Positions 311 through 10,341 of a stretch of 64,000 nucleotides of DNA are shown one piece after another. This DNA is from Escherichia coli (GTDB lineage: Bacteria > Pseudomonadota > Gammaproteobacteria > Enterobacterales > Enterobacteriaceae). The notes beneath the pieces were generated by a model. It searched no databases. It had not been told where the DNA came from and was given only the letters and a program-made list of their open reading frames with translations. The translations under genes and the position numbers were made by a program. Position 1 is the first letter of the stretch. Every line of letters starts with the position of its first letter. The stretch lies in the NCBI RefSeq assembly GCF_044324785.1, contig NZ_CP172127.1, one strand, 5' to 3'.

Positions 311-1717
311 TCAGAAGATGGTGAATGGTGCGATTACCATAAATTTCACGTCACGCTCATCCTGGAAGATGTTGCCGTAACCGCCGCCCCAGCTTGGGAT
401 GTCGGAGTGGTTGTCGTATTCGGTGAAGTGCAGTTTGAACATCGTGCCTTTGGCGCGACCGTCCTGAATGGTGTACACCGCATCCAGGCTGTAGGCAGAC
501 TCTTCAATAGTCCGGTTTTTGTCGTAGTACGCATCCGGATTGCTCTGCCAGGTAGCGGGTTTAGCATCCCATGCGTAAACGTAGGAAGCGCCGATGGCGA
601 AGCCTGGAAGATTCCAGTTTTTCAGGTCATACATCGCACCGAAGAAGACCGCTTTTTCGCCGTTGGCGTTGAAGTCAGAACGGTTATCCCACCAGATATC
701 CAGGCGGCCGTTCGAGGAAGCGTAGGTTGGGGTCATACGTTGCAGGAAGTATCCCTGCTGACCGTCGGCTTTAACCCAGGTGCCTTCCAGACGCAAATCC
801 ACTACGTCAGCCGCCCGGTAACCAAAGGTCAACGCTTGCAGCCAGGCGGTGCCGTCGTAAAGATCGTTGACACTGCGATCGTCAACTTTATCGCGCGTAC
901 CGTAGAACTGATAGCTGGTGGTTAGCGGGCTACCGGCGATATCAAATTTGTAGCTGGCTTTGGCAAAATATTGATCGATATACCCTTCAGCCTGACCAAA
1001 TGCCGCTTCCAGTACGAAGTTATTTTTGAAGTCGTACTTCGCCCCGAGGGAGTGTAAATAGTCAACCTTGGTGGTTTTATCGTTCTGATAAAACTCATCC
1101 ATTTCCAGATGCCACGGTGCTTTGTATTCGTTGGTCCACATGTAGGAGAAACTCAACGCACCCGCATCGCCGTAATCAAAATTCGCCCCGGCTTCCGCAC
1201 CCTGATAAGTACCCGGCATAAAGCTCCAGTGCGGCGCTAACAGCGTCTGACCGGTTGGCTGAATATAACCTGCCCTCGCCCACACCGGACCGTATTTAAA
1301 TTTGGCCGCTGCTTTATACAGGCTTATACCGCTTTTATCGCCGGACCAGTCTTCGTCATAGGCTTTATTGCTTTTTGAAAACGCGATTTCGTTCGGGTGA
1401 GAGCTGTCACCGTTTTCCGCCATTTCAATCGCCGTAAACGCAGCAATATCAAGGCCGAACATATCAGCAGCATAACCGGACTGAAAATCGAGGTTGGCAT
1501 TCCAGGTGGAGTGAGAAAGGTTGGTTTTGTATTTGTCGCCGTCGGTAACATCTTTACGGTCGCGTTCACGCTGCCAGTAATAGATACCGCCGGTTAAGGT
1601 TGAATCGTCGATGAATCCTTCGGCGCGAGCCTCCGGCATTGCCATAAAGCCCGACATTGCTGTAACACCGGCGATAGCCAGCGCCAGCGTACTACGTTTG
1701 CCACTAAACGTACGCAT
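311..1717 (-). CDS. chiP: Chitoporin ChiP (YbfM), outer membrane porin for chito-oligosaccharides
   Basis: 468-aa ORF with signal peptide and C-terminal beta-barrel motif ending ...FTIF; length and sequence match E. coli ChiP. Confidence 0.93.
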
Positions 1718-1800
1718 GGGTTAATCCTCTTTGACGTATAAATTGCTGCACCAAAGGTGAACAGCGAAAAAAATAAAAATTAAAAAAGTAGCGTTGAGAA
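1718..1800 (-). promoter_or_regulatory. chiP 5' leader with Shine-Dalgarno (AGAGGA); expected target region of ChiX sRNA
   Basis: Position directly upstream of chiP start; ChiX regulation is established knowledge, exact pairing not verified here. Confidence 0.4.
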
Positions 1801-2157
1801 AAGTCTCGCTGACTACAGGAACAGACTATTTTTCGCGACGCGAATTATCAATCTCTTTCTGTAACCAGAATGTAAGAACATGAGCAACCGCACATATTTT
1901 GATGATTTTTGTTACAAGGCTTAAGTTGTAGTTGAAAGGTGTGTTGAAGAAAAAATGCGTGAATTTCCAGCAAGATGAAAGCGGTTACATTTTATTTAAT
2001 TATGATTTGTAATTTTAAATTTGCTTTATGAATAAATTACGAAGCAGAATTAATTCGCGAAGAAAAGCAGAAAAAAACGCCGCGGAGCGCGGCGTTTGGG
2101 ATTGTTTGCATATTTCTTGCCGGATTCGGCGTAAACGCTCTATCCGACAACGTAAAA

Positions 2158-3822: not shown

Positions 3823-3983
3823 CGTGGATTCCTCAAAGCGTAAACAACGTATAACGGCGTATGATCTTATAAGCGGGACAGGCTGACAACTGTTAGTTAG
3901 TGAAAATCGAAAATCTCACTGAGATTATGGGGATGATTGATGAAAAAAAAAGCGGCAGAGAAGATCTCCACCGCTTGTCATTG

Positions 3984-4013
3984 TTGGATGCGACGCTCAA
4001 GCGTCGCATCAGG
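3984..4013 (-). terminator. REP-like palindromic hairpin downstream of nagE (likely nagE terminator)
   Basis: Palindrome GGATGCGACGCTCAAGCGTCGCATCAGGC just 3' of nagE stop. Confidence 0.45.
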
Positions 4014-4024
4014 CATAAAGCAGA

Positions 4025-5971
4025 TTACTTTTTGATTTCATACAGCGGTGTTTGACCCGCCACAACATGGCCCTGAGCTTTAATGATCAAGCCACTGAAA
4101 TCGTCGATATTGCTGCAAACCACCGGGCTAATCATCGAGCGGGCGTTAGCGTTCAGGTAATCCAGATCCATTTCCAGAATCGGTTGTCCTGCGCTTACTT
4201 GCGCGCCCTCTTCCACCAGACGTTTAAAGCCTTTACCTTCCAGCGCTACGGTGTCGATACCCATATGGACGACGATCTCCGCGCCTTTTTCGGTTTCCAG
4301 ACAGAACGCGTGGTTGGTGTTGAAGATTTTCACGATTGTCCCTGCGGCTGGTGATACGACGATTTTATCTGTCGGTTTCACCGCCACACCGTCACCCACC
4401 GCTTTGCTGGCGAATGCTTCGTCAGGAACCTGATCCAGTGCCACAACATCACCGGTAATCGGCGATACCAGCTCCGCGATAGACACCGCGTTTGGTACAG
4501 CCTGCGGTTTTGCTACAGAAGCGGCAGTTGCCGGAGTTGCTTCAGCTGACGCAGCGGCTACCGGACCACGGGCAACAACTTTCTTCATTGCATCGCCAAT
4601 GGATTCCGCTTTCGCGCCAACAATCACCTGAATAGTCTGTTTGTTCAGTTTCACTACCCCAGAAGCACCCAGACGTTTACACATCGCATCGTTGACGCGA
4701 GCTGAGTCAACCACGGTCAGGCGCAGACGAGTAATACAGGCGTCAATTGCTTTCAGGTTGTCAGTACCGCCCACCGCAGCAATATAGTTGGTCGCCAGTT
4801 GAGTCAGACCTTCTTCCGTGTTGCTGTTGGCTTCTTCAGTAACGATCTCGTCTTCTTTATCTTCACGGCCCGGCGTTTTCAGGTTGAACATACGGATAAC
4901 CAAACTGAACACCACGAAGTAGATAGCGAAGAAGACAACACCCATCACCAGCAGCATCCAGACGTTCTGGCTGGCGGCCGGCAGGTTATACATCAACGCG
5001 TAGTCGATAGCCCCCGCAGAGAAGGAGAAGCCCGCGTGGATACCCAGCAGCGTTGCCACAAACAGGCTGATACCGGTCAGCAGTGCGTGCAGGAGGTACA
5101 GCAGCGGCGCAAGGAACATGAACAGGAATTCCAGCGGCTCAGTCACACCGGTCAGGAACGCAGTAACAGCAACAGAAAGCAGCATACCGCCAACCATCGG
5201 ACGACGCTCTTTCGGTGCTGCAAAGTACATCGCCAGCGCCGCACCCGGCAGACCGAACATCATGATCGGGAAGAAGCCGGACATGAACATCCCCGCGGTG
5301 CCGTCACCAGCGTAGAAACGGTTGATGTCGCCGTGGAAAACCGTACCCGCCGCGTTGGTGAATTCACCAATCTGGAACCAGGCGATGGTGTTCAGCACCT
5401 GATGCAGACCGGTTGGGATCAGCAGACGGTTGATGAAACCAAAGATACCGGAACCCAGCGCGCCCGCAGAAACGATCCACTCGCCGCCTGCATGGATAGC
5501 GTGCTGTACTGGCGGCCAGACGTAACCAAAAATGGCTGCCAGCACCAGGCAGAAGAAGCCGGTGGCAATCGGCACAAAGCGTTTGCCGCCGAAGAAACTC
5601 AGGAAGTCCGGCAGTTTAATATCGGACCAACGGTTATAGGCTGCACCACCGACCAGACCGGTAATGATACCCGCCAGTACACCCATGTTAATTTCCGGGT
5701 TGATGGTCACCATCGCTTTGGTTAACACAAAGTAACCTACCGCACCCGCCAGCGCCGCCGCACCTGCGCTGTCTTTCGACCAGCTGGATGCCACACCGAT
5801 GGCGAAGATTAATGCGAGGTTATCAAAAATCGCACCGCCCGCCTGGGCAATAAACGCAACGTTAAGTAAATCTGGCTGACCGAATCGCAGCAACAGCGCC
5901 GCCACAGGCAGCACCGCGATAGGGAGCTGTAACGCCCTACCGAGTCGCTGGAAAAAACCTAAAATATTCAT
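4025..5971 (-). CDS. nagE: PTS N-acetylglucosamine-specific EIICBA component
   Basis: 648-aa ORF, polytopic N-terminal domain plus C-terminal EIIB/EIIA; divergent from nagB as in the nag regulon. Confidence 0.96.
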   Translation of the reverse strand: MNILGFFQRLGRALQLPIAVLPVAALLLRFGQPDLLNVAFIAQAGGAIFDNLALIFAIGVASSWSKDSAGAAALAGAVGYFVLTKAMVTINPEINMGVLAGIITGLVGGAAYNRWSDIKLPDFLSFFGGKRFVPIATGFFCLVLAAIFGYVWPPVQHAIHAGGEWIVSAGALGSGIFGFINRLLIPTGLHQVLNTIAWFQIGEFTNAAGTVFHGDINRFYAGDGTAGMFMSGFFPIMMFGLPGAALAMYFAAPKERRPMVGGMLLSVAVTAFLTGVTEPLEFLFMFLAPLLYLLHALLTGISLFVATLLGIHAGFSFSAGAIDYALMYNLPAASQNVWMLLVMGVVFFAIYFVVFSLVIRMFNLKTPGREDKEDEIVTEEANSNTEEGLTQLATNYIAAVGGTDNLKAIDACITRLRLTVVDSARVNDAMCKRLGASGVVKLNKQTIQVIVGAKAESIGDAMKKVVARGPVAAASAEATPATAASVAKPQAVPNAVSIAELVSPITGDVVALDQVPDEAFASKAVGDGVAVKPTDKIVVSPAAGTIVKIFNTNHAFCLETEKGAEIVVHMGIDTVALEGKGFKRLVEEGAQVSAGQPILEMDLDYLNANARSMISPVVCSNIDDFSGLIIKAQGHVVAGQTPLYEIKK

Positions 5972-6094
5972 CTTATTCCCCCTACGAGAACCCTATTTGG
6001 CTCGTTTAAAGCCGTATTTTTATTTTGCTGCAAATTGTACTGCCGATGTTCTGTAATCAGATTGTTAGATCATCTGCTACAGAGTGTGTGAAAA

Positions 6095-6117
6095 TTTAAT
6101 TCGTATCGCAAATTAAA
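6095..6117. promoter_or_regulatory. NagC operator (nagE-proximal), 23-bp palindrome TTTAATTCGTATCGCAAATTAAA
   Basis: Near-perfect inverted repeat TTTAATT...AATTAAA in nagE-nagB divergent region; matches known NagC operator architecture. Confidence 0.65.
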
Positions 6118-6126
6118 CGCGTGTCT

Positions 6127-6148
6127 TTTGTGAGTTTTGTCACCAAAT
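6127..6148. promoter_or_regulatory. CRP binding site TGTGA-N6-TCACC between the two NagC operators
   Basis: TTTGTGAGTTTTGTCACCAAAT matches CRP consensus TGTGA-N6-TCACA. Confidence 0.7.
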
Positions 6149-6187
6149 ATCGTTATCATCACTCCCTTTTACTGGCTAAACCAGAAA

Positions 6188-6214
6188 ACTTATTTTATCA
6201 TTCAAAAAATCAGG
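6188..6214. promoter_or_regulatory. Putative nagB-proximal NagC operator
   Basis: AT-rich imperfect palindrome CTTATTTTATCATTCAAAAAATCAGG about 100 bp upstream of nagB; placement fits the two-operator loop model. Confidence 0.4.
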
Positions 6215-6303
6215 TCGGATTGACGCCTGTCTGCGCAAATCCAGGTTACGCTTAAAGATGCCTAATCCGCCAACGGCTTACATTTTACTTATTGAGGTGA
6301 ATA

Positions 6304-8312
<2,009 letters not shown>

Positions 8313-8320
8313 GAGAAAGT

Positions 8321-9541
8321 ATGACACCAGGCGGACAAGCTCAGATAGGTAATGTTGATCTCGTAAAACAGCTTAACAGCGCGGCGGTTTATCGCCTGAT
8401 TGACCAGTATGGGCCAATCTCGCGGATTCAGATTGCCGAGCAAAGCCAGCTTGCCCCCGCCAGCGTAACCAAAATTACGCGTCAGCTTATCGAACGCGGG
8501 CTGATCAAAGAAGTTGATCAGCAGGCCTCCACCGGGGGCCGCCGCGCTATCTCTATCGTCACCGAAACCCGCAATTTCCACGCAATCGGTGTACGGCTTG
8601 GTCGTCACGACGCCACCATTACTCTGTTCGATCTCAGTAGCAAAGTGCTGGCAGAAGAACATTACCCGCTGCCGGAACGTACCCAGCAGACGCTGGAACA
8701 TGCCCTGCTGAATGCCATTGCTCAGTTTATTGATAGCTACCAGCGCAAGCTGCGCGAGCTGATTGCCATTTCCGTGATCCTGCCAGGGCTTGTTGACCCG
8801 GACAGCGGCAAAATTCATTACATGCCGCATATTCAGGTAGAAAACTGGGGGCTGGTAGAAGCACTGGAAGAGCGTTTTAAAGTGACCTGTTTTGTCGGCC
8901 ACGATATCCGTAGTCTGGCGCTGGCAGAGCACTACTTCGGTGCAAGTCAGGATTGCGAAGACTCCATTTTAGTGCGTGTCCATCGCGGGACCGGGGCAGG
9001 GATTATCTCTAACGGGCGCATTTTTATTGGCCGCAACGGCAACGTCGGTGAAATTGGCCATATTCAGGTCGAACCGCTGGGTGAACGCTGCCATTGCGGC
9101 AACTTTGGCTGCCTGGAAACTATCGCCGCTAACGCTGCCATTGAACAACGGGTATTGAATTTATTAAAGCAGGGCTACCAGAGCCGTGTGCCACTGGACG
9201 ACTGCACCATCAAAACTATCTGCAAAGCCGCGAACAAAGGCGATAGCCTGGCCTCGGAAGTGATTGAGTATGTCGGTCGTCATCTGGGTAAAACCATCGC
9301 CATTGCTATCAACTTATTTAATCCGCAAAAAATTGTCATTGCCGGTGAAATCACCGAAGCCGATAAAGTGCTACTCCCTGCTATCGAAAGCTGCATTAAT
9401 ACTCAGGCACTGAAGGCGTTTCGTACTAATCTACCGGTGGTACGTTCTGAGTTGGATCACCGCTCGGCAATCGGCGCTTTTGCGCTGGTAAAACGCGCCA
9501 TGCTCAACGGTATTTTGCTCCAGCATTTGCTGGAAAATTAA
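8321..9541 (+). CDS. nagC: NagC transcriptional repressor/activator (ROK family)
   Basis: 406-aa ORF, N-terminal HTH, ROK sugar-kinase-like domain with Zn-binding CHCGNFGC. Confidence 0.97.
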   Translation: MTPGGQAQIGNVDLVKQLNSAAVYRLIDQYGPISRIQIAEQSQLAPASVTKITRQLIERGLIKEVDQQASTGGRRAISIVTETRNFHAIGVRLGRHDATITLFDLSSKVLAEEHYPLPERTQQTLEHALLNAIAQFIDSYQRKLRELIAISVILPGLVDPDSGKIHYMPHIQVENWGLVEALEERFKVTCFVGHDIRSLALAEHYFGASQDCEDSILVRVHRGTGAGIISNGRIFIGRNGNVGEIGHIQVEPLGERCHCGNFGCLETIAANAAIEQRVLNLLKQGYQSRVPLDDCTIKTICKAANKGDSLASEVIEYVGRHLGKTIAIAINLFNPQKIVIAGEITEADKVLLPAIESCINTQALKAFRTNLPVVRSELDHRSAIGAFALVKRAMLNGILLQHLLEN

Positions 9542-9588
9542 TGTGCTTTTATAGTGGCGCTTATTGTTGTCAATATTCTGGGTAGTCC

Positions 9589-10341
9589 ATGACCATTAAA
9601 AATGTAATTTGCGATATCGACGGCGTGCTGATGCACGATAACGTCGCCGTACCGGGTGCAGCGGAATTTTTGCACGGGATTATGGATAAAGGCCTGCCGC
9701 TGGTGTTGCTGACCAACTATCCTTCGCAGACCGGGCAAGATCTGGCGAATCGCTTTGCCACTGCCGGTGTCGATGTACCGGATAGCGTGTTTTATACCTC
9801 CGCGATGGCGACCGCCGATTTCCTGCGTCGCCAGGAAGGCAAGAAAGCGTATGTGGTGGGCGAAGGCGCACTGATTCATGAACTGTACAAAGCCGGTTTC
9901 ACTATTACCGATGTGAACCCTGATTTTGTGATTGTTGGCGAAACGCGTTCCTACAACTGGGACATGATGCATAAAGCAGCCTATTTCGTCGCTAACGGTG
10001 CACGCTTTATCGCCACCAACCCGGACACCCACGGGCGCGGTTTTTATCCCGCCTGTGGCGCGTTGTGTGCAGGGATCGAGAAAATCTCCGGGCGCAAACC
10101 GTTCTATGTTGGAAAGCCGAGTCCGTGGATCATCCGCGCGGCATTAAACAAAATGCAGGCGCATTCGGAAGAAACGGTGATTGTCGGCGATAACTTGCGT
10201 ACCGATATTCTGGCGGGCTTCCAGGCCGGTCTGGAGACGATTCTGGTGCTTTCTGGTGTTTCGTCACTCGACGATATCGACAGTATGCCGTTCCGCCCAA
10301 GTTGGATTTACCCATCGGTCGCTGAAATCGACGTTATCTGA
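9589..10341 (+). CDS. nagD: UMP phosphatase NagD/UmpH (HAD superfamily)
   Basis: 250-aa ORF with HAD motif I CDIDGVL; last gene of nagBACD. Confidence 0.95.
   Translation: MTIKNVICDIDGVLMHDNVAVPGAAEFLHGIMDKGLPLVLLTNYPSQTGQDLANRFATAGVDVPDSVFYTSAMATADFLRRQEGKKAYVVGEGALIHELYKAGFTITDVNPDFVIVGETRSYNWDMMHKAAYFVANGARFIATNPDTHGRGFYPACGALCAGIEKISGRKPFYVGKPSPWIIRAALNKMQAHSEETVIVGDNLRTDILAGFQAGLETILVLSGVSSLDDIDSMPFRPSWIYPSVAEIDVI

What the first reader, a model, noticed from the sequence alone, without database searches (positions are those of the whole stretch)
6095..6214. nagE-nagB divergent promoter region shows the two-operator NagC loop architecture with a central CRP site
Seen in sequence: near-perfect 23-bp palindrome TTTAATTCGTATCGCAAATTAAA (6095-6117), CRP consensus TGTGAgttttgTCACC (6129-6144), and a second AT-rich imperfect palindrome near 6188-6214. 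Established knowledge: NagC represses nagE and nagBACD by binding two operators and looping across a CRP site. The sequence agrees with that model.
Basis: partly seen in the sequence, partly recalled or inferred. Interest (0 to 1): 0.15.

Follow-up and report, generated by a model that had tools for sequence, protein, structure and literature searches.

The report
Known E. coli nagE-nagB control region

Summary
All three strings are at the stated coordinates, in the 332-bp gap between divergent nagE (4025-5971, -) and nagBACD (6304-10341, +) of an E. coli chromosome.

6095-6117 is the reverse complement of the published nagE NagC operator. 6189-6211 is identical to the published nagB operator. 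A NagC matrix built only from seven other published sites ranks them 2nd and 3rd of 63,978 positions in the window; the known chiP site is 1st.

Public start-site data put nagE +1 at 6075 and nagB +1 at 6209. Box E then covers -20 to -42 of nagE. Box B covers -20 to +3 of nagB. The single CRP site sits at -61.5 (nagE) and -72.5 (nagB).

Across 79 species, 61 keep a 93/94-bp operator spacing, and 58 of those keep CRP 30.5 bp from box E. Conservation peaks on the three elements.

Three corrections:
- The palindrome is 8 of 11 arm pairs, not near-perfect.
- CRP is a third of the way along the loop, next to box E, not central.
- Box B is 6189-6211.

Binding and looping were not tested here; the primary footprint papers were not held. 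Already known, low interest.

The parts
6095..6117 (.). NagC operator at nagE (box E), TTTAATTCGTATCGCAAATTAAA. Weak, hybrid NagC/Mlc-type operator with T/A at positions -11/+11. Spans -20 to -42 of the nagE promoter.
   Evidence: Reverse complement of the published nagE site TTTAATTTGCGATACGAATTAAA. Matrix rank 2 of 63,978. TT/AA at +/-5,6 as required. Mean information 1.55 bits per column in 51 species. Hybrid character stated in PMC4288165.
6126..6147 (.). cAMP-CRP site, core TGTGAgttttgTCACc at 6129-6144, centre 6136.5. This is -61.5 for nagE and -72.5 for nagB. It lies inside the NagC loop, next to box E.
   Evidence: 9 of 10 core bases; the only core with 2 or fewer mismatches in the intergenic region. 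Half-sites carry 1.84 and 1.86 bits per column in 51 species while the middle 6 bp drift at 0.70. nagB and nagE are known CRP targets recovered by genomic SELEX. Position relative to start sites.
6189..6211 (.). NagC operator at nagB (box B), CTTATTTTATCATTCAAAAAATC. Strong operator with C at -11 and +11. Spans -20 to +3 of the nagB promoter.
   Evidence: Identical to the published nagB site. Matrix rank 3 of 63,978. 1.49 bits per column in 51 species. Called the strong operator in PMC4288165.
6075..6111 (-). nagE core promoter: +1 at 6075 (A), -10 CACACT at 6088..6083, -35 TTGCGA at 6111..6106 (inside box E). The 5' leader is 104 nt.
   Evidence: Cappable-seq start site at U00096.2 703063(+), which equals window 6075. 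Hexamers were read by eye at 17-bp spacing, so they are inferred. The generic promoter scan did not find them.
6172..6209 (+). nagB core promoter: +1 at 6209 (A), -10 TATCAT at 6196-6201 (inside box B), -35 region TGGCTA/CTGGCT at 6172-6178. The 5' leader is 95 nt.
   Evidence: Start site at NC_000913.2 702929(-). Its printed upstream 51-mer equals window 6159-6209. Conserved block cTgGC at 6172-6176 in 51 species. Hexamer assignment is inferred.
4025..5971 (-). nagE, the GlcNAc-specific PTS transporter IIABC. It makes the inducer GlcNAc-6-P.
   Evidence: NF007608 equivalog, 1446 bits over 1-648. RefSeq annotation.
6304..10341 (+). nagB (6304-7104), nagA (7164-8312), nagC (8321-9541; the repressor) and nagD (9589-10341).
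   Evidence: NCBIfam equivalogs for all four. RefSeq annotation. NagC carries the STGGRR linker motif described in PMC4288165.

Best explanation
This is the native E. coli nagE-nagBACD control region.

Repression. Without GlcNAc-6-phosphate, NagC (encoded in the same operon at 8321-9541) binds the strong operator box B, which covers the nagB -10 and +1. It binds cooperatively to the weak operator box E, which covers the nagE -35. The operator centres are 94 bp apart, about 9 helical turns. The DNA between them loops out and both divergent promoters are shut.

Activation. One cAMP-CRP site inside the loop, 30.5 bp from box E, serves both promoters from class I positions: -61.5 for nagE and -72.5 for nagB.

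Induction. GlcNAc entering through NagE becomes GlcNAc-6-P, which releases NagC and opens both operons.

Shown here: sequence identity to the published operators, matrix ranks, positions relative to mapped start sites, and conservation. Taken from the literature: NagC binding, cooperativity, looping, phase dependence and CRP activation. Inferred: the -10 and -35 hexamers, and that CRP sits on the same DNA face as NagC (2.9 and 6.05 turns from the operator centres).
For: - Genes identified. The region is at least 99% identical in 5409 complete E. coli genomes.
- Operators identical to published sites, with matching K-12 coordinates.
- Leave-out matrix ranks 2 and 3 of 63,978, with the known chiP site 1st as a positive control.
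- Shuffle tests.
- Start sites at 6075 and 6209 from independent public data sets. Geometry computed.
- 61 of 79 species loci keep 93/94-bp spacing. 53 of 55 loci with a divergent nagE keep it. CRP is 30.5 bp from box E in 58 of 61.
- Information content peaks on box E, the CRP half-sites and box B, and falls in spacers and flanks.
- Model statements in held papers.
- No RNA family match in the region.
Against: - The primary footprint and looping papers (Plumbridge & Kolb 1991, 1993, 1995, 1998; Plumbridge 2001) were not held. Operator positions therefore rest on a secondary table and reviews.
- Binding cannot be tested in silico.
- The conserved 94-bp and 30.5-bp distances do not by themselves prove loop phasing. 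One shared CRP site fixed at class I positions, plus operators that must overlap the core promoters, would give the same spacing.
- PMC3105977 mentions 'multiple' CRP sites in this spacer. I find only one core.
- PMC4288165 writes the box E ends as -11A/+11T. The sequence reads T and A on either strand, a minor discrepancy in notation.
Confidence: 0.95

Rival explanations
1. The CRP site is only a shared class I activator. Its position inside the loop and the fixed 94-bp spacing are by-products of promoter geometry, not of any structural role in the repression loop.
For: -61.5 and -72.5 are standard class I positions. Box E must overlap the nagE -35 and box B the nagB -10, so 30.5 + 63.5 bp follows automatically. 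Variants with 93 bp exist in 10 species.
Against: Held papers report that changing operator phasing derepresses both operons and that box E depends on cooperative loop formation with box B. From memory only, not verified here: Plumbridge & Kolb 1998 reported that CAP stabilises the loop and that moving the CAP site by 6 bp derepresses. The near-integral turn counts (2.9 and 6.05) fit a bend directed into the loop.
Confidence: 0.25
2. Box E is physiologically an Mlc operator, or a shared Mlc/NagC operator, so nagE is also under glucose-linked Mlc control.
For: Box E has A/T at both +/-11 positions, the Mlc signature. This holds in 58 of 61 species. PMC4288165 calls it a hybrid Mlc/NagC site.
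Against: [quoted passage not shown] It also states that with box B present the site is preferentially regulated by NagC.
Confidence: 0.08
3. The motifs are chance AT-rich quasi-palindromes in an AT-rich intergenic region (38% G+C).
For: Palindromy alone is unremarkable: 8 of 11 pairs, and three 23-mers with at least 8 of 11 in this one spacer. CRP cores with one mismatch occur at the chance rate across the window.
Against: Exact identity to published sites. Matrix ranks and shuffles. Footprint-like conservation in 51-61 species while the neighbouring bases drift.
Confidence: 0.01

Closest known systems
E. coli K-12 nagE-nagBACD regulatory region (Plumbridge & Kolb 1991, 1993, 1995, 1998; Plumbridge 2001)
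   Same: It is the same locus. Both operators are identical in sequence, K-12 coordinates map one-to-one (window = 709138 minus the NC_000913.2 coordinate), and the CRP site and divergent genes are the same.
   Different: Nothing within 5972-6303. The strain is not K-12: the nearby chiP-glnS spacer is only about 93.6% identical to K-12.
Other two-site NagC targets (glmUS, chbBCARFG, fimB) and the single-site target galP
   Same: The same 23-bp NagC site type. Most need two sites and looping (PMC5401889).
   Different: At nagE-B both operators overlap core promoters and repress two divergent operons at once. At glmUS NagC also activates. galP uses one site.
lac operon O1-O3 loop with the CRP site inside it (from general knowledge, not tested here)
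   Same: A repressor loop of about 9 turns encloses a CRP site at -61.5, so activator bend and repressor loop coexist.
   Different: The repressor family differs (LacI versus ROK-family NagC). lac has one promoter and an auxiliary operator. Here both operators are primary promoter-occluding sites for two promoters.
Mlc operators (ptsG, manX, etc.)
   Same: A near-indistinguishable 23-bp quasi-palindrome with invariant TT/AA at +/-5,6. Box E shares the A/T at +/-11.
   Different: Mlc sites are regulated by Mlc, which responds to glucose transport. Box E is regulated by NagC because of cooperativity with box B.

Membership tests
NagC operator (23-bp NagC/Mlc-type site) | Invariant TT at -6,-5 and AA at +5,+6 around the centre of a 23-bp quasi-palindrome | tested here: met
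   Met by box E and box B by direct reading. Rule taken from PMC4288165.
NagC operator (23-bp NagC/Mlc-type site) | High score with a matrix built from independent, experimentally known NagC sites | tested here: met
   7-site matrix excluding nagE, nagB and chiP gives ranks 2 and 3 of 63,978. Shuffle P is 0.001 and 0.011.
NagC operator (23-bp NagC/Mlc-type site) | C or G at +/-11 (mark of a high-affinity, NagC-specific site) | tested here: inconclusive
   Box B meets it with C and C. Box E does not, with T and A. The literature describes this as the known hybrid, weak character of the nagE operator, not as non-membership.
NagC operator (23-bp NagC/Mlc-type site) | Identity with sites shown to bind NagC | tested here: met
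   Exact string match to the nagE and nagB entries of FITBAR Table 1.
NagC operator (23-bp NagC/Mlc-type site) | Physical protection by NagC (footprint) | not testable with these tools
   Primary papers not held. A control footprint on nagE-nagB is mentioned in PMC5401889.
Two-operator repression loop | Two operators on the same helical face, each overlapping a promoter | tested here: met
   94 bp is 8.95 turns. Box E spans -20 to -42 of nagE and box B spans -20 to +3 of nagB.
Two-operator repression loop | Repression lost when one operator is removed or phasing is changed | not testable with these tools
   Reported in the literature as cited in PMC2946308 and PMC4288165.
Class I CRP-dependent promoter | Match to TGTGA-N6-TCACA | tested here: met
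   9 of 10 bases. It is the sole such core in the spacer, and half-sites are near-invariant in 51 species.
Class I CRP-dependent promoter | Site centred near -61.5, -71.5/-72.5, -82.5 and so on from the start site | tested here: met
   -61.5 for nagE and -72.5 for nagB, using public start-site data.
Class I CRP-dependent promoter | CRP binding and cAMP-dependent activation | not testable with these tools
   Literature: genomic SELEX target. Activation is stronger for nagE.

The most novel reading that the evidence does not exclude
The exact geometry seems frozen across Enterobacterales, Aeromonas and part of Vibrionaceae: box E, then 30.5 bp to CRP, then 63.5 bp to box B, with a deliberately weak A/T-ended operator at nagE and a strong C-ended one at nagB. 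It has also survived replacement of the adjacent nagE gene by a lineage only about 38% identical over the N-terminal 120 residues. If nobody has documented this, it would suggest selection on the loop itself, and on operator asymmetry, rather than on each site separately.
Probability: 0.35. Interest if true: 0.2.

Novelty: already known. Interest (0 to 1): 0.06.

Why it matters
It matters little as a discovery, because this control region has been dissected experimentally since about 1990. The check does show that the first-stage reader can recognise a real, complex regulatory architecture from raw sequence. It also fixes the details: operator limits, CRP position, and promoter and start-site coordinates. 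The cross-species comparison adds a modest point: spacing and strong/weak operator asymmetry are conserved far beyond E. coli.

Tried and rejected
- The generic sigma-70 scan found neither real promoter, only a hit at 6277-6305 at the chance rate. Both nag promoters have 3-4 of 6 hexamers, as expected for CRP-dependent promoters.
- The inverted-repeat finder did not report box E and gave one unrelated overlapping pair instead.
- Fetching the primary papers failed: PMC29661, PMC2446801, NAR 26:1254/PMC147383, PMC177988, PMC4288677.
- A full-text search for the CRP site string returned only unrelated antibody and vector papers.
- K. pneumoniae start sites for nagE and nagB were not in the stored part of the supplement.
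- Rfam gave only a sub-threshold snoRNA chance hit. An RNA-element reading is rejected: box E and the CRP site lie upstream of both start sites and are not transcribed from either promoter.
- I looked for a second CRP site, prompted. None has 2 or fewer mismatches.

Full report
**What is there**

The window is E. coli chromosome. The 332-bp stretch 5972-6303 is at least 99% identical in 5409 complete E. coli genomes and 100% identical in every listed hit.

It lies between divergent genes. nagE is at 4025-5971 on the minus strand. nagB (6304-7104), nagA (7164-8312), nagC (8321-9541) and nagD (9589-10341) are on the plus strand. All are identified by NCBIfam equivalog models above cut-off and by RefSeq annotation of an identical locus. 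glnS and chiP/chiQ lie beyond nagE, and asnB lies beyond nagD.

**Observation check**

- TTTAATTCGTATCGCAAATTAAA at 6095-6117
- TGTGAGTTTTGTCACC at 6129-6144
- an AT-rich element within 6188-6214

Two descriptions are too generous. First, the 23-mer pairs only 8 of 11 arm positions (the outer seven perfectly). 107 of 63,978 23-mers in the window do as well, three of them in this same spacer, and the repeat tool did not report it. Box B pairs 5 of 11. Second, a CRP core with one mismatch occurs 3 times in the window against 1.9 expected. Palindromy and core match alone are therefore not beyond chance.

**Independent tests of the interpretation**

1. *Published sites.* Table 1 of the FITBAR paper (PMC3098098) lists experimentally known NagC sites compiled from El Qaidi & Plumbridge 2008 and J. 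Plumbridge. It gives nagB as CTTATTTTATCATTCAAAAAATC and nagE as TTTAATTTGCGATACGAATTAAA. The first is window 6189-6211. The second is the reverse complement of 6095-6117. Their K-12 coordinates in that paper (702949; 703020/703043) agree with the mapping window = 709138 minus the NC_000913.2 coordinate. I validated that mapping on the nagB, nagE and glnS coordinates.

2. *Leave-out matrix.* I built a symmetric matrix from the seven listed sites that are not in this window. The three best 23-mers of 63,978 are:

| Rank | Window | Site | Bits |
|---|---|---|---|
| 1 | 1827-1849 | known chiP/ybfM site (positive control) | 21.8 |
| 2 | 6095-6117 | box E | 18.3 |
| 3 | 6189-6211 | box B | 14.7 |

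In 5000 dinucleotide shuffles of the spacer, a maximum of at least 18.3 bits had frequency 0.001. A maximum of at least 14.7 had frequency 0.011, and both together never occurred. The CRP core appeared in 0.5% of 1000 shuffles.

3. *Start sites.* Kim et al. 2012 (Table S1) give a nagB start at NC_000913.2 702929(-). Its printed upstream 51-mer equals window 6159-6209, so +1 is 6209 and the leader is 95 nt. The Cappable-seq table of Ettwiller et al. 2016 has a start at U00096.2 703063(+), which is window 6075 on the nagE strand, giving a 104-nt leader. I had predicted 6075 beforehand from hexamers read by eye (note). The resulting geometry is:

| Element | Position |
|---|---|
| Box E | -20 to -42 of nagE; contains a TTGCGA -35 at 6111..6106 |
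| Box B | -20 to +3 of nagB; contains a TATCAT -10 at 6196-6201 |
| CRP centre (6136.5) | -61.5 for nagE, -72.5 for nagB |

Both CRP positions are class I. The hexamer assignments are inferences; the generic promoter scan misses them.

4. *Conservation.* A scan of one genome per species with NagB returned 80 loci from Enterobacterales, Aeromonas, Vibrionaceae and others. I scanned the 420 bp upstream of nagB with the same seven-site matrix.
   - The two best hits are 94 bp apart in 51 loci and 93 bp apart in 10.
   - Among loci with a detectable divergent nagE, 53 of 55 have this spacing.
   - The best CRP core between the boxes is exactly 30.5 bp from the box E centre in 58 of 61.
   - In 51 distinct sequences anchored without gaps, information per column is high on the three elements and low elsewhere:

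   | Region | Bits per column |
   |---|---|
   | Box E | 1.55 |
   | CRP half-sites | 1.84 and 1.86 |
   | Box B | 1.49 |
   | Middle of the CRP site | 0.70 |
   | Spacers | 0.42-0.62 |
   | Flanks | 0.23-0.37 |

   - One further conserved block, cTgGC at 6172-6176, coincides with the nagB -35 region.
   - Vibrio species whose nagB stands alone keep one strong site near -51 and no fixed partner.

**Mechanism**

Held papers state the following.
[quoted passage not shown] - Most NagC-controlled operons, including nagE-B, need two sites and looping (PMC5401889).
- Altering operator phasing derepresses both operons (PMC2946308).
- The operators overlap the nagE and nagB start regions, and cAMP-CRP activates both operons, nagE more strongly (PMC12562284).
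- nagB and nagE are known CRP targets recovered by genomic SELEX (PMC3105977).
- GlcNAc-6-P is the inducer that displaces NagC.
- NagC also has constitutive internal promoters (PMC2806358).

The window's NagC is intact, matching equivalog NF047937 at 719 bits. It carries the STGGRR linker that the 2015 paper ties to NagC-type recognition.

The sequence agrees with the strong/weak asymmetry. Box B has C at both ends and box E has T and A. This pattern holds in 58 of 61 species for box E and for the -11 C of box B.

The CRP site is inside the loop but not central. It is 30.5 bp (2.9 turns) from the box E centre and 63.5 bp (6.05 turns) from the box B centre. The near-integral turn counts would put CRP on the same face as NagC, compatible with a bend directed into the loop. 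This is my inference.

My recollection that Plumbridge & Kolb 1998 showed CAP stabilising the loop could not be checked, because the paper is not held.

The conserved distances do not prove loop phasing. A single CRP site locked at two class I positions, plus operators that must cover the core promoters, would produce the same spacing. The proof of looping is the published genetics, not my comparison.

**Alternatives**

- An RNA element is excluded. Rfam finds nothing, and box E and the CRP site lie upstream of both start sites.
- Chance is excluded.
- An Mlc role at box E is possible in principle. The literature says it does not happen at physiological protein levels.

**Verdict**

This is an already known, textbook-grade system, so interest is low. 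The only mildly new material is how deeply the geometry and operator asymmetry are conserved, including across two very different nagE lineages.

Noticed in passing
window 1827-1849 (and 2015-2037): The top NagC matrix hit of the whole window, GATAATTCGCGTCGCGAAAAATA on the minus strand, is the published 'ybfM proximal' NagC site upstream of chiP. The 4th-ranked hit (12.1 bits, TTAAATTTGCTTTATGAATAAAT) lies in the same chiP-glnS spacer and could be a second, distal site.
   Followed up: partly
window 1713-2157: The chiP-glnS spacer is strikingly polymorphic within E. coli. Only 8 complete genomes are at least 99% identical to this window, and 4149 are at 90-95% (K-12 BW25113 at 93.6%). By contrast the nagE-nagB spacer is at least 99% identical in 5409 genomes. 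The spacer is 445 bp here and 576 bp by K-12 coordinates.
   Followed up: partly
L003, L008 and 41 other loci, about 740-1190 on the minus strand: Two deeply different NagE lineages sit divergent to nagB. They are about 38% identical over the first 120 residues, and one has a 23-residue insertion. Even congeners differ: E. cloacae has the E. coli type and E. asburiae the other. Both score as GlcNAc PTS IIBC (TIGR01998). The operator/CRP architecture is the same beside both.
   Followed up: partly
L003 (NZ_JAATUR010000059.1, labelled E. coli SCPM-O-B-8794): This contig has a NagB 100% identical to E. coli and an E. coli-like box B-to-nagB segment, but the alternative nagE lineage and a diverged left half of the spacer. 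Its nagE DNA matches none of 5,426 complete E. coli genomes. It may be a recombinant, a mislabel or an assembly chimera. Its box B carries an extra G (CATTCGAAAAAATC).
   Followed up: partly
window 6260 (+) and 6054 (-): Secondary start sites appear in public data. A nagB start lies 44 nt upstream of the ATG, downstream of box B (15 reads against 13 for the main start). A weaker nagE-strand start is at 6054. Either could be NagC-independent basal promoters or processing ends.
   Followed up: no
window 6172-6176: A small conserved block, cTgGC, sits in the otherwise drifting CRP-box B spacer, at -37 to -33 of nagB. It is most simply the nagB -35 element, though C6176 fits the -35 consensus in only one of the two possible registers.
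   Followed up: partly
L041, L044, L046, L048, L053, L055, L067, L068 and others (Vibrio, Aliivibrio): Where nagB is not next to nagE, a single strong NagC-type site (for example CTTATTTTATAATGCGAATTAAT, 19 bits) sits about 51 bp upstream of the nagB ATG. It has no partner at a fixed distance and no CRP core nearby.
   Followed up: no
window about 3933-4055 (+): RefSeq annotates a 40-codon 'hypothetical protein' (WP_001297734.1) on the strand opposite to the nagE 3' end and partly overlapping it, in the glnS-nagE junction.
   Followed up: no
PMC4288165 text versus window 6095 and 6117: The paper describes the wild-type nagE operator as '-11A,+11T'. The 23-mer reads T at -11 and A at +11 on either strand. 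This is probably a notation slip and does not affect the A/T-versus-C/G argument.
   Followed up: no
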